A DNA stretch of 64,000 bases from a virus (taxonomy: Duplodnaviria; Heunggongvirae; Uroviricota; Caudoviricetes): IMG/VR virus record IMGVR_UViG_3300029288_000055, positions 234,764 to 298,763 of that record. One strand, written 5' to 3'. Each line of letters opens with the position of its first letter. Position 1 is the stretch's first letter. The notes below the pieces were generated by a model that ran no database searches, was not told where the DNA came from, and worked only from the letters and a program-made list of their open reading frames with translations. A program made the position numbers and the translations under genes. Positions 1,505 through 3,850 of the stretch are shown here, in pieces.

Positions 1505-1591
1505 TGCGGATTAGAGAAGTTGGTCTATCTCGCTGGTCTCATAAGCCAGAACCCCCATAAGGGGTCAGGGGTTCGAATCCCTTATCCGCTA
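1505..1591 (+). tRNA. tRNA with CAT anticodon, initiator-like, with atypical long variable arm
   Basis: Acceptor TGCGGAT/ATCCGCT with 1:72 mismatch, A73, loop CTCATAA, extra stem ACCCC-CATAA-GGGGT, T arm AGGGG-TTCGAAT-CCCTT. Confidence 0.85.
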
Positions 1592-1628
1592 CAAAGAAAT
1601 TCCAACATGAAGAATTTTCAAAATTTTT

Positions 1629-1674: not shown

Positions 1675-2485
1675 ATGAAAAATCAGTTGAAAGTTGAAAT
1701 AGTAGAAATGTTTGTCGCAAAACCTGACAGAAATAGAGTTTATTTCGGATGCATTAAAAGAAGCAGAAACGAAAAAGGCGAAATGAATCTTTTCAGTCGT
1801 ATTGCTATGCCTGATGGTGATGTACTCTGTGCAAACGAAACAGATCAGTTAGTTCTTGCAAAAAATCTTAACAGCATGGCGGTTATGATACTTGACATGG
1901 ACATTCATAACGATACAGGTATTTCCACCGAAATGTTCAAATTGAAGTTTTATCATAATTAGATGAAAGATTTTGAATTATTGAAAAGAACTTATCCTAT
2001 TTCGGAGTTTGATCGTCCATGCGATGGTCTTTTCTTTATAATGGAAAACAGCACGCCTGAAGAACGAATGACATGGGGCATAAGTGGTAGAGGTATTAAT
2101 GCCAGAGAAGAACTACAACAAAAAATAAAAAAAGGTGAGAAGTACATTTATCAGGTAGCAAAGGATAAGGGTGAATTCAAAGTAATGTGTCTATGTTTTA
2201 GTAATTATATGATAATAAGAAAATATATTTTTAAATTGGAGGACGAATAAAATGAATGATTTTACAAAATTTTGGTTTGAAGGTAATTTATATTTTGGAA
2301 TGGTGAATGATCTTGATGACTTACAAAAAGTATTTCATGAATACGAAACTCACATGACAAAAGACGAAATACTTGATAAAGCAGTAAATAAAGATGAAAC
2401 TCTTACTGAATTTGGATTAAGGTTAGAACATCATGGTAAAGTAACACTACGTCAATTTTTAACAGATAAAGGAATTAAAATATAA
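1675..2485 (+). other. Three hypothetical CDSs (1675-1962, 1963-2250, 2252-2485)
   Basis: Abutting ORFs; the first ends in TAG immediately followed in frame by the ATG of the second. Confidence 0.65.
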
Positions 2486-2549: not shown

Positions 2550-2621
2550 GCTTCCATGACCGAATGGCTATGGTATCGGTCTCTAAAACCGAGTGTGCGG
2601 GTTCGATTCCTGCTGGAAGCA
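2550..2621 (+). tRNA. Amber suppressor tRNA (anticodon CTA), tRNA-Trp-like anticodon arm
   Basis: Acceptor GCTTCCA/TGGAAGC, A73; anticodon arm TCGGT-CTCTAAA-ACCGA; variable GTGT; T arm GCGGG-TTCGATT-CCTGC. Confidence 0.92.
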
Positions 2622-2635
2622 CAAAAAAATTAATT

Positions 2636-2779
2636 ATGAAAACATTAAAAAAAGAAAAACTGAACGAAATTTTAGATTTAATTGTTTCTGAAGACCCATA
2701 TTGTGGAGTTGATGGTCAAGAAGAAGCATTATCAAAATTAATTGAATATCTAAATGAAAATGATATTGAAGTTAAATAA
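2636..2779 (+). CDS. Small hypothetical protein (47 aa)
   Basis: ATG 2636 has an A-rich leader; the ORF-track start at 2564 lies inside the tRNA. Confidence 0.55.
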   Translation: MKTLKKEKLNEILDLIVSEDPYCGVDGQEEALSKLIEYLNENDIEVK

Positions 2780-2876
2780 ATGGATAAATATTTGGAAATT
2801 AAAAAACTTTGATTAATTTTGTATCTCAATAGTATTTATAAGTCTACAGAGTAATATTAATTTAAAACAAAAAACG

Positions 2877-3227
2877 ATGAAGTAGGTAAAATTAGTAACA
2901 ATCACAAGAAAAGACCTCTATGCAGGTTATCAGTTAGTGCAGACTGCGCATTCAGTTGCGGAATTCGCACATCAATATCCAGATCAGTTCAATGACTGGA
3001 AACAAAATTCTAATTACATTATTTCGTTATCTGTCGATAACGAAGAGAAACTTCAAAGACTATTTTACAAATTACAGGACAATGGTGCTGATGTCGTTGC
3101 ATTCACAGAACCCGACATTAACGATCAGTTGACCAGTATTTGTTATTATGGTACGCCTGAAATGCGAAAATTAACAGACAAGTTAGATTTAGCACTTGAA
3201 GAAGTTAATGTCGCAACTAATAATTAA
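2877..3227 (+). CDS. Peptidyl-tRNA hydrolase (Pth2-like fold) with in-frame amber codon at codon 3
   Basis: ATG AAG TAG GTA AAA... is in frame with ORF 2937-3227. Read-through gives MK*VKLVTITRKDLYAGYQLVQTAHSVAEF...W...VVAFTEPDINDQLTSI, matching Pth2-like motifs (RKDL, QxxH, FxEPD, LT). Confidence 0.8.
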
Positions 3228-3250
3228 ACTTGCAACTAAATTTAAAAGCT

Positions 3251-3286
3251 ATGAAACACTTATAGATGACAACCAGACCCCCGTAA
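3251..3286 (+). CDS. Amber-containing leader minigene MKHL*MTTRPP*
   Basis: ATG AAA CAC TTA TAG ATG ACA ACC AGA CCC CCG TAA after the A-rich leader TTTAAAAGCT; followed by hairpins. Confidence 0.6.
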
Positions 3287-3414
3287 TGATGTGCATTACA
3301 CCAGATTCGCAATTCGCAAATCACGAACGAATCGATTACATAAAATACGTAACGTAAAATATGTAATATACAAAATGTATAATCAATAACAAATAAATTT
3401 TAATACACATTATT

Positions 3415-3747
3415 ATGGAAACAATAGTAAAATTCAATTATGCAAAAATGAAGGAAGACATTAAAACCAAAGCTGAAGAACAGAAGTTCTTAAAAAATCA
3501 GAGAAAAACCATAAAAATAATCGGTGAAAGAGTAATCCCTGCAAAGGATGCCACATACAAACATATGACAAACAGAGAAGACTTACGAATCATGTACGCT
3601 GCTTATGGTTTAGCCAGAGGCAAGAATTTTTCTCAAATCGAAAATCATTATCTTGAAGAAAATCATCCTCTTCAGAAATACCAGAAAAGTATCGATAGAC
3701 TTTTAGAAAAGTATAAGATGCTTGTAAAAGTTGAAACAGTAGAATAA
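3415..3747 (+). CDS. Hypothetical protein with R-x-M-Y-A-A-Y-G-L-A-R-G motif, co-transcribed with the Pth-like gene
   Basis: 110-aa ORF; same unit ends at terminator 3754-3778. Confidence 0.75.
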   Translation: METIVKFNYAKMKEDIKTKAEEQKFLKNQRKTIKIIGERVIPAKDATYKHMTNREDLRIMYAAYGLARGKNFSQIENHYLEENHPLQKYQKSIDRLLEKYKMLVKVETVE

Positions 3748-3753
3748 TGAAAT

Positions 3754-3778
3754 GGGGTGATAACACACCCCTTTTTTT
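3754..3778 (+). terminator. Intrinsic terminator
   Basis: GGGGTG-ATAACA-CACCCC followed by T7. Confidence 0.85.
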
Positions 3779-3850
3779 ATTTTTTTCTTGCATATTTGCT
3801 ACGGATTGTATAATTTTACGAAAAATAATTTTAGAGTTAATATATTTTAT

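What the first reader, a model, noticed from the sequence alone, without database searches (positions are those of the whole stretch)
2550..3778. Amber-gated peptidyl-tRNA hydrolase module next to its own UAG-suppressor tRNA in an otherwise non-recoded window
Seen: a CUA-anticodon tRNA (2550-2621). About 255 nt downstream, a Pth2-like gene starts ATG AAG TAG (2877-2885) and continues in frame into the family N-terminal strand (VKLVTITRKDLYAGYQLVQTAH), with no ATG/GTG/TTG between the TAG and codon 21. A second amber minigene follows (3251), then a 110-aa partner gene and one terminator. Long genes elsewhere (up to 792 aa) are TAG-free and about six ORFs still stop at TAG, so this is not global code-15 recoding. 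Established: amber-recoding phages carry suppressor tRNAs; very short minigenes such as lambda bar cause peptidyl-tRNA drop-off that Pth must recycle; prfB autoregulates through stop-codon competition. Inference: the UAG acts as a sensor, so that full-length Pth is made only when suppressor tRNA outcompetes RF1. This would be a feedback or timing switch for translation rescue, while the unsuppressed product fMet-Lys is itself a potential Pth substrate.
Basis: partly seen in the sequence, partly recalled or inferred. Interest (0 to 1): 0.93.

Follow-up and report, generated by a model that had tools for sequence, protein, structure and literature searches.

The report
Amber-gated phage Pth2 cassette with suppressor tRNA
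A huge phage that otherwise uses the normal genetic code carries its own UAG-reading tRNA next to two genes that can apparently be translated only when that tRNA overrides a stop codon. This gives such "orphan" phage suppressor tRNAs a conserved natural target, and I found no published description of it.

Summary
Window 2550-3778 holds a well-formed tRNA(CUA), a PTH2-fold gene that starts ATG-AAG-TAG, a second amber mini-ORF (MKHL*MTTRPP*), a 110-aa gene and a terminator. The contig is a 363-kb phage with 55 tRNAs and is not TAG-recoded.

Comparative evidence:
- In 35 of 43 Pth2 clusters a 1-4-codon leader ends in a stop directly before the domain, and 30 of these have a matching suppressor tRNA in the fetched flanks.
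- The clusters include huge phages, cultured Tenacibaculum phage pT24 and mycobacteriophages Bxz1 and Myrna.
- In six loci the gating stop is TAA. There the tRNA, where seen, has anticodon UUA, and the mini-ORF's internal stop is also TAA. This switch arose at least twice.
- The mini-ORF's last Pro codon, its stop and the next bases pair with the start codon of the 110-aa gene. Only a ribosome that has read through the amber and halts at Pro-Pro-stop can free that start.

Best reading (0.8): the cassette's two genes are translated only under suppression. Why this is useful remains inferred (rescue capacity, timing or feedback).

I found no published description. This scan has reported the same module repeatedly on other DNA.

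The parts
2550..2622 (+). Amber-suppressor-type tRNA, anticodon CUA. The anticodon arm resembles that of tRNA-Trp, with G1-C72 and A73. The amino acid it carries is unknown.
   Evidence: ARAGORN. Rfam RF00005 62.7 bits. Compared with the contig's other tRNAs.
2636..2779 (+). 47-aa ORF between the tRNA and Pth2. No family match. Membership in the cassette is not shown.
   Evidence: ORF list. No Pfam or PHROG hit.
2791..2821 (+). Possible Bacteroidota-type promoter (TTTG, 19 nt, TAATTTTG) in front of the Pth2 operon.
   Evidence: Read by eye. Matched to the consensus from my own knowledge, not tested.
2877..2885 (+). Pth2 leader ATG AAG followed by the gating amber TAG (2883-2885). The next base is G.
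   Evidence: The arrangement is conserved in 35 of 43 clusters.
2886..3227 (+). PTH2-fold domain of 113 aa, ending in TAA.
   Evidence: Pfam PF01981 25.5 bits. AF2 model pLDDT 94. Foldseek matches to archaeal and human Pth2, TM 0.75-0.78. Profile against PDB 2zv3, E 1.6e-8.
3251..3289 (+). Amber-containing leader mini-ORF MKHL*MTTRPP*. The TAG is at 3263-3265 and Arg-Pro-Pro at 3275-3283. It ends in tandem stops TAA TGA.
   Evidence: Such mini-ORFs occur 25 times on the Pth2 strand and once on the other strand. Tandem stops in 64 of about 75.
3281..3298 (+). 5' arm of the long-range helix. It comprises the last Pro codon, the stop and the following bases.
   Evidence: MFE fold -36.7 kcal/mol, z -5.2. 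Pair list. Kept in 10 of 10 relatives.
3306..3319 (+). Tandem heptamer TTCGCAA TTCGCAA in the spacer, unique in the window. Relatives carry it in either orientation. Role unknown.
3401..3418 (+). 3' arm of the helix. It contains the start codon (3415-3417) of the 110-aa gene.
3415..3747 (+). 110-aa partner gene. The family is conserved, mostly helical and of unknown function.
   Evidence: 324 homologues, all unnamed and without Pfam. AF2 pLDDT 93.6. No fold match.
3754..3780 (+). Intrinsic terminator that closes the cassette.

Best explanation
The region is a three-part translational switch of a standard-code huge phage.

1. The phage's tRNA(CUA) reads UAG.
2. The Pth2-like gene starts with a two-codon leader followed by UAG, so the full-length enzyme is made only when the tRNA beats release factor 1 at that codon.
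3. Downstream lies an 11-codon leader with UAG at codon 5 and Arg-Pro-Pro-stop at its end. Its last Pro codon, the stop and the next bases are base-paired to the start codon of the 110-aa gene.
   - A ribosome that stops at the UAG leaves this helix closed.
   - A ribosome that reads through and then dwells at Pro-Pro-stop holds the helix open, so the 110-aa gene can be initiated.

Both outputs therefore report suppressor activity.

Shown by sequence comparison: the layout, its conservation, the co-variation of stop and anticodon, and the helix.

Inferred: that read-through and arrest really occur, which amino acid is inserted, that the enzyme hydrolyses peptidyl-tRNA, and the purpose. The most likely purpose is to tie rescue or recycling capacity, or the timing of these two proteins, to the moment when UAG suppression is active in the infected cell.
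For: - The residues between the TAG and GTG 2937 are conserved as protein: R8 is invariant or nearly so, and Q19 and H22 are invariant. They form strand 1 and helix 1 of a confident PTH2 fold.
- Of 43 clusters at 80% identity, 35 have a start codon, 0-3 further sense codons (1-4 leader codons) and a stop directly before the domain, with no ATG in between. Thirty of the 35 have a matching suppressor tRNA in the fetched flanks. It is often the only tRNA there and lies upstream or downstream equally often.
- pT24 has its tRNA(CUA) 2.5 kb upstream, and LR756501 has two 2.3 kb downstream.
- In the metagenome set 49 loci pair TAG with CUA, and no gated locus is discordant. Six loci have TAA as the gating stop. 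Their tRNA is UUA in all 4 where one is seen, and the mini-ORF's internal stop is also TAA in all 5 where one is seen.
- The tree needs at least 2, and at best fit 4, origins of the TAA type.
- The base after the gating stop is a purine in 35 of 35 clusters. Of the contig's 15 ordinary TAG terminators, 8 are followed by T and 1 by C.
- Three lineages carry a further in-frame TAG inside Pth2.
- The duplex between leader end and start codon averages -10.6 kcal/mol in 64 distinct loci, against -3.6 for controls, with visible compensatory changes.
- Homologues without a nearby suppressor (L068, L069, RAS14) have ordinary starts.
Against: - Nothing is experimental. It is unknown whether the tRNA is expressed or charged, or whether read-through occurs.
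- In 21 of 35 clusters the codon after the stop is ATT, ATA, ATC or GTG, which could serve as a weak start.
- In Bxz1 and Myrna the Shine-Dalgarno spacing fits the GTG after the TAG better than the codon before it.
- Three huge phages (LR745206, LR756504, LR756502) have the gated gene, but I found no suppressor tRNA within 10 kb or by pattern search.
- The Lys of the Pth2 'GK' motif is replaced in this family, going by the alignment; the role of that Lys is from my memory of the Pth2 literature. Peptidyl-tRNA hydrolase activity is therefore not assured.
- TAG still ends about 6% of the phage's own long ORFs, so strong suppression would have a cost.
Confidence: 0.8

Rival explanations
1. Termination-reinitiation. 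The leader is a tiny upstream ORF, and the ribosome that terminates at its stop restarts at the next codon, so no suppressor is needed.
For: The codon after the stop is ATT, ATA, ATC or GTG in 21 of 35 clusters. Bxz1 gp154 and Myrna gp84 are annotated as starting at the GTG right after the TAG, and their SD spacing fits that GTG.
Against: In 14 of 35 clusters the next codon cannot start translation (GTA, GTT, AAA, AAC, ACT, GAA). This includes the window (GTA), where no other candidate precedes codon 21 except a single ATC. The stop is never TGA, and it switches to TAA exactly where the tRNA is UUA. Some lineages have extra TAGs inside the gene.
Confidence: 0.08
2. Ordinary stop-codon recoding (code 15). 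The TAG is one of many recoded codons of a phage whose late genes use TAG as a sense codon.
For: Such phages exist and carry CUA tRNAs (bioRxiv 10.1101/2021.08.26.457843, read). Relatives such as LR756501 have a second TAG inside Pth2.
Against: Coding cover of the 363-kb contig hardly changes when TAG is read as sense (0.85 against 0.87). Fifteen of 238 long ORFs end in TAG, each with another stop within 0-17 codons. Leader-type TAGs are no more common than leader-type TAA or TGA, and Pth2 is the only clear case. The position of the stop is fixed across 30-90% identity. A neutral Gln codon would have drifted to CAA or CAG.
Confidence: 0.03
3. Artefact or decay. The TAG is a sequencing error, or the gene is a pseudogene.
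For: None beyond the stop itself.
Against: Contigs from two other runs are identical over the site, and a strain variant keeps the TAG. More than 100 loci share the feature. The protein sequence is under clear constraint.
Confidence: 0.01

Closest known systems
Stop-codon-recoded phages with suppressor tRNAs (code 15, TAG read as Gln: crAss-like, Lak and others; bioRxiv 10.1101/2021.08.26.457843; PMC9523058)
   Same: A phage-encoded tRNA(CUA) lets in-frame TAGs be translated in a standard-code host. That work also proposes the arrangement as a way to time gene expression.
   Different: Here the genome is not recoded. The only clear targets are two sites in one small cassette next to the tRNA. 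The stop sits at a fixed place in a non-conserved leader. One of the targets is an attenuator leader and not a protein-coding codon.
Orphan suppressor tRNAs of standard-code jumbo phages (Xanthomonas phage XacN1, PMC5852040; Agrobacterium phage Atu_ph07, PMC6102473)
   Same: Large phages with many tRNAs, a suppressor tRNA and a peptidyl-tRNA hydrolase gene.
   Different: The XacN1 authors read through its 18 amber stops and found no target. Here a conserved target is identified. I did not inspect XacN1's own pth gene.
Leader-peptide arrest attenuators (tnaC Pro-stop stalling, ermCL/cat leaders, SecM, RAPP-type arrest peptides); from my own knowledge
   Same: A short upstream ORF, a C-terminal Pro-Pro-stop or Arg-Pro-Pro motif, and a helix that hides the next gene's start and is opened by the paused ribosome.
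   Different: The input is not a small molecule, an antibiotic or secretion. It is read-through of an internal stop codon by a dedicated tRNA.
prfB (RF2) autoregulation through an early in-frame UGA; from my own knowledge
   Same: Expression is set by competition at an early in-frame stop codon.
   Different: There is no frameshift, and the gene product is not the factor that reads the stop. The competitor is a tRNA encoded alongside.
Lambda bar minigenes and Pth; from my own knowledge
   Same: Two- to four-codon ORFs ending in a stop, associated with peptidyl-tRNA hydrolase biology.
   Different: The leader is in frame with, and directly joined to, the enzyme's own coding sequence. Drop-off is not shown. 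The stop type follows the tRNA anticodon.
Archaeal and eukaryotic Pth2 (PDB 2zv3, 3erj, 1wn2, 1xty; human Bit1/PTRH2 1q7s)
   Same: Same fold over the whole length (TM 0.75-0.78, rmsd 2.4-3.1 Å). The motifs VVxRxDL, Q..H and D....T are shared.
   Different: About 20% identity. The Gly-Lys of the first motif is Gly-Tyr or Gly-Gln here. Activity is untested.

Membership tests
PTH2 (Pfam PF01981) | Score at or above Pfam's gathering threshold | tested here: met
   25.5 bits against 23. 24.7 bits in the genome scan. pT24 homologue 32 bits.
PTH2 (Pfam PF01981) | Pth2 alpha/beta fold | tested here: met
   AF2 pLDDT 94.2. The top 12 Foldseek hits are all Pth2 structures, TM 0.71-0.78.
PTH2 (Pfam PF01981) | Catalytic residues conserved | tested here: inconclusive
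   R8, Q19, H22, D77 and T83 are invariant and align to Pth2 motifs. The Lys of the GK motif is replaced. Which residues are catalytic is from my memory of the literature.
PTH2 (Pfam PF01981) | Hydrolysis of peptidyl-tRNA | not testable with these tools
   Needs an enzyme assay or complementation of a pth(ts) strain.
Code-15 recoded phage | Many genes with in-frame TAG, and a clear gain in coding density when TAG is read as sense | tested here: not met
   0.85 against 0.87. No other clear case.
Code-15 recoded phage | TAG no longer used as a terminator | tested here: not met
   15 of 238 ORFs of 150 aa or more end in TAG.
Code-15 recoded phage | Phage-encoded tRNA(CUA) | tested here: met
Leader-peptide arrest attenuator | Short translated ORF upstream of the regulated gene | tested here: met
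   Mini-ORF 3251-3286, 128 nt before the ATG at 3415. Conserved in over 60 distinct loci.
Leader-peptide arrest attenuator | RNA structure that hides the downstream start and overlaps the pause site | tested here: met
   13-bp helix 3281-3293 with 3406-3418, which includes the ATG. Conserved with compensatory changes.
Leader-peptide arrest attenuator | Ribosome arrest at the motif | not testable with these tools
   The Arg-Pro-Pro-stop ending is conserved. Arrest itself needs toeprinting or ribosome profiling.
Lambda bar-type minigene | Free-standing 2-3-codon ORF whose expression is toxic when Pth is limiting | tested here: not met
   The leader is in frame with and fused to the Pth2 coding sequence, and its stop follows the tRNA anticodon. 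Toxicity is not testable here.
prfB-type autoregulation | The gene product itself decodes the regulatory stop, and a +1 frameshift site is present | tested here: not met
   The frame is continuous across the TAG. The product is a hydrolase fold and not a release factor. There is no RF gene on the phage contig.

The most novel reading that the evidence does not exclude
The cassette is a self-contained circuit in which a private suppressor tRNA acts as a trans-acting translational activator. Its two outputs, the Pth2-like hydrolase and the unknown 110-aa protein, act back on suppression or termination. For example, they might deacylate the suppressor or handle peptidyl-tRNA(Pro) released at the leader, or modulate RF1. 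Such a loop would give the phage a homeostat or a bistable switch for a transient, cell-wide change in the meaning of UAG.
Probability: 0.15. Interest if true: 0.92.

Novelty: new variant of a known kind. Interest (0 to 1): 0.78.

Why it matters
Suppressor tRNAs in large phages that use the standard code have had no known target; the XacN1 authors looked for one and found none (PMC5852040). This cassette supplies a target that is conserved from mycobacteriophages to 700-kb phages.

It would be a natural gene switch driven by nonsense suppression. It would also be a leader peptide that senses read-through and not a metabolite.

The idea is directly testable, because cultured phages carry the cassette: Tenacibaculum phage pT24, and Bxz1 and Myrna on M. 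smegmatis mc2 155.

It also matters for annotation. Gene callers truncate or miss these genes; pT24's CDS is annotated from an internal start.

Tried and rejected
- **Near-DNA search in the phage collection:** no match.
- **Alignment-based locus search with all 17 sequences:** no block was conserved enough, so it was redone with 10.
- **Genome-contig scan:** only 3 MAG contigs, all with the same layout.
- **Function of the 110-aa protein:** Pfam, PHROGs, Foldseek against PDB, AFDB clusters and the ESM Atlas gave nothing usable. Weak similarities to sigma-70 family and transposase entries are not trusted.
- **Complex prediction of Pth2 with the 110-aa protein:** no verdict.
- **Amino-acid identity of the tRNA:** undecided. 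The best overall match is the contig's tRNA-Arg(CCU) at 73%, and the anticodon arm is Trp-like.
- **RNA expression:** no RNA holder was listed for this stretch.
- **Suppressor tRNA in LR745206, LR756504 and LR756502:** none within 10 kb or by two loop patterns.
- **Other leader-type TAG genes on the contig:** none convincing.
- **The TTCGCAA repeat as a genome-wide motif:** rejected, because there is only one copy in the window.
- **Literature:** five full-text searches found no description of an amber-gated pth gene or a suppression-sensing leader.

Full report
**1. What is there**

The window is part of a 362,763-bp contig (30.5% GC) binned with higher-GC contigs. That contig carries 55 tRNA genes and a tmRNA, so it is a huge phage.

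The features, in order along the + strand:
- ARAGORN finds a tRNA with anticodon CUA at 2550-2622. Rfam's tRNA model scores it 62.7 bits. It is the last member of a tRNA island that spans about 40 kb.
- At 2877 the sequence reads ATG AAG TAG and goes on in frame as VKLVTITRKDL... to TAA at 3227.
- The first canonical start after the TAG is GTG 2937, at codon 21.
- Downstream lie a mini-ORF (3251-3286), a 110-aa ORF (3415-3747) and a terminator (3754-3771).

**2. The phage is not recoded**

- Stop-to-stop coding cover of the contig is 0.85 under the standard code and 0.87 with TAG read as sense.
- ORFs of 150 aa or more end in TAA 189 times, TGA 34 times and TAG 15 times.
- The TAG terminators are backed by another stop within 0-17 codons, and 8 of the 15 are followed by T.
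- ORFs bounded upstream by TAG and preceded by a short ATG leader are no more common than the same arrangement with TAA or TGA. Pth2 is the only clear case.
- The release-factor genes of the bin lie on other contigs and not on the phage.

**3. The gene is a PTH2-fold protein and its N-terminus is translated**

- Pfam PTH2 scores 25.5 bits against a cut-off of 23, starting at the second residue after the TAG.
- An AlphaFold2 model built on 30 homologues has pLDDT 94.2.
- Its best structural matches are archaeal Pth2 and human Bit1, over the full length (TM 0.75-0.78).
- A profile of the family finds PDB 2zv3 at E 1.6e-8.
- R8, Q19, H22, E75, P76, D77 and T83 are invariant. R8 lies before GTG 2937, and that GTG itself encodes residue 18, so a protein started there would lose strand 1 and R8.
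- The Gly-Lys of the first Pth2 motif is Gly-Tyr or Gly-Gln in this family. Enzymatic activity therefore remains an inference.

**4. The early stop is conserved**

tblastn against phage records and two scans of IMG/VR gave homologues at 30-90% identity. They come from:
- huge phages (the LR7565xx records);
- the cultured Tenacibaculum phage pT24;
- mycobacteriophages of cluster C.

In almost all of them a start codon and 0-3 further sense codons (1-4 leader codons) are followed by TAG directly before the domain. Examples are MK*, MKL*, MKDK*, MS* and MKNY*. Bxz1 reads ATG TAG GTG and Myrna reads GTG TAG GTG.

Clustered at 80% identity:
- 35 of 43 clusters are gated.
- 30 of the 35 have a matching suppressor tRNA in the fetched flanks.
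- That tRNA lies upstream as often as downstream, and it is often the only tRNA there.

pT24 has its tRNA 2.5 kb upstream, and LR756501 has two 2.3 kb downstream.

Homologues with ordinary starts and no leader stop (L068, L069, Stenotrophomonas phage RAS14) have no suppressor nearby. Three loci lack the leader stop but still keep a CUA tRNA. L074 and L077 also keep an amber mini-ORF upstream of the operon.

**5. Co-variation**

A metagenome scan added 79 loci. Of these, 49 pair a TAG gate with a CUA tRNA, and no gated locus is discordant.

Six loci have TAA as the gate: L036, L125, L127, L141, L155 and L163.
- The tRNA is UUA in all four where one is seen.
- The mini-ORF's internal stop is TAA in all five where one is seen.

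On a tree of the Pth2 domain the TAA type needs four origins. Well-supported branches force at least two.

So three sites change together: the anticodon, the Pth2 gate and the leader gate. This is what read-through by the neighbouring tRNA predicts. Reinitiation does not predict it.

Further points that fit read-through:
- The gate is never TGA.
- The base after the gate is a purine in 35 of 35 clusters. From my own knowledge of classical amber-suppression studies, that context favours suppression.
- In 14 clusters, this window among them, the next codon cannot initiate translation.
- Three lineages have a second TAG inside the gene.

**6. The second mini-ORF is an attenuator leader**

In the window it reads MKHL*MTTRPP*, followed by a second stop. 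Relatives have M-x(1-4)-amber-x(1-4)-(R/K)-P-P-stop.
- Such ORFs occur 25 times on the Pth2 strand and once on the other strand, in 462 kb of loci.
- 64 of about 75 end in two stops in a row.
- Nearly all are followed 60-180 nt later by the 110-aa family, or by a second family that also begins MET.

The window's leader RNA folds at -36.7 kcal/mol (z -5.2). A 13-bp helix joins 3281-3293 (the last Pro codon, TAA and the next seven bases) to 3406-3418, which contains the ATG at 3415.
- The helix is kept in 10 of 10 close relatives.
- In 64 distinct loci the duplex averages -10.6 kcal/mol, against -3.6 for control windows.
- In 70% of those loci it beats all 20 controls, and compensatory changes are visible.

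A ribosome at the UAG (3263) should end well before the helix. A ribosome with Pro-Pro in its P and E sites and the stop in the A site must have melted it. Both statements are inferences from ribosome geometry. That Pro-Pro-stop slows termination is established knowledge, but it was not tested here.

**7. Reality of the sequence**

Contigs of two other public runs (groundwater and landfill) are identical across 2795-2951 and across 3096-3422. A diverged strain keeps the TAG.

**8. What remains open**

- **The 110-aa protein.** It has 324 unnamed homologues and a confident but unmatched fold.
- **The inserted residue.** It is unknown, and it probably does not matter to the enzyme, because the stop lies in a non-conserved leader.
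- **The three suppressor-less huge phages.** Three phages of about 640 kb have the gate but no suppressor that I could find.
- **The purpose.** Possible readings:
  - coupling of peptidyl-tRNA recycling to suppression load (the phage also has a tmRNA);
  - a delay timer;
  - feedback on the suppressor.

**9. Novelty**

Five literature searches found no description of this arrangement. The recoding preprint does not mention a hydrolase. The XacN1 paper states that no target of its CUA tRNAs could be found.

Earlier notes of this same scan describe the same module, and the read-through-sensing leader, on many other genomes. This window is therefore a further instance. My tests of co-variation and of the helix were made independently here.

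Noticed in passing
G000:C1:203185-203265 (outside the window): ARAGORN calls a tRNA with a four-base anticodon (taag) inside the phage's tRNA island. The contig also has a tmRNA at C1:206983-207347.
   Followed up: no
window 1675-2250: Two 95-aa ORFs are joined in frame by TAG and then ATG (1960-1965), 600 nt upstream of the CUA tRNA. Read-through would fuse them. The relative L035 has different genes at this place.
   Followed up: partly
window 1505-1592: The tRNA-Met(CAT) is 88 nt long, which is unusual for a class I tRNA. It may contain an insert or an intron.
   Followed up: no
L005:1501-1818, L065:4001-4321, L070:4001-4327: These Pth2 homologues carry a second in-frame TAG inside the domain, followed by ATT or GTA.
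   Followed up: partly
L029:4419-5168, L038, L040, L030: A gene of about 250 aa (starting MINKLNLKEGAYYIGTCRNT...) is inserted at different places in the cassette, between leader and partner or between Pth2 and leader. It looks like a mobile insertion.
   Followed up: no
L023 and L024 (Prevotella phages Lak-A1 and Lak-B5): The Pth2-like gene has an N-terminal extension of about 30 aa without a stop, and a tRNA with anticodon UUA lies about 700 nt upstream.
   Followed up: partly
L087, L088, L089 (LR745206, LR756504, LR756502): These phages have the amber-gated Pth2, but no suppressor tRNA was detected within 10 kb or by loop-pattern search of the whole records.
   Followed up: partly
L006 (Tenacibaculum phage pT24, LC168164 194.1-195.0 kb): The Pth2 domain is fused to a C-terminal part of about 200 aa with no Pfam match. 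The deposited CDS starts at an internal codon and so misses the N-terminal strand and the amber leader.
   Followed up: partly
G000 contigs C5 and C17: The bin's release-factor genes lie on 36-38% GC contigs, while the 30.5% GC contig C1 is phage. The bin therefore mixes a small bacterial genome with a huge phage.
   Followed up: no
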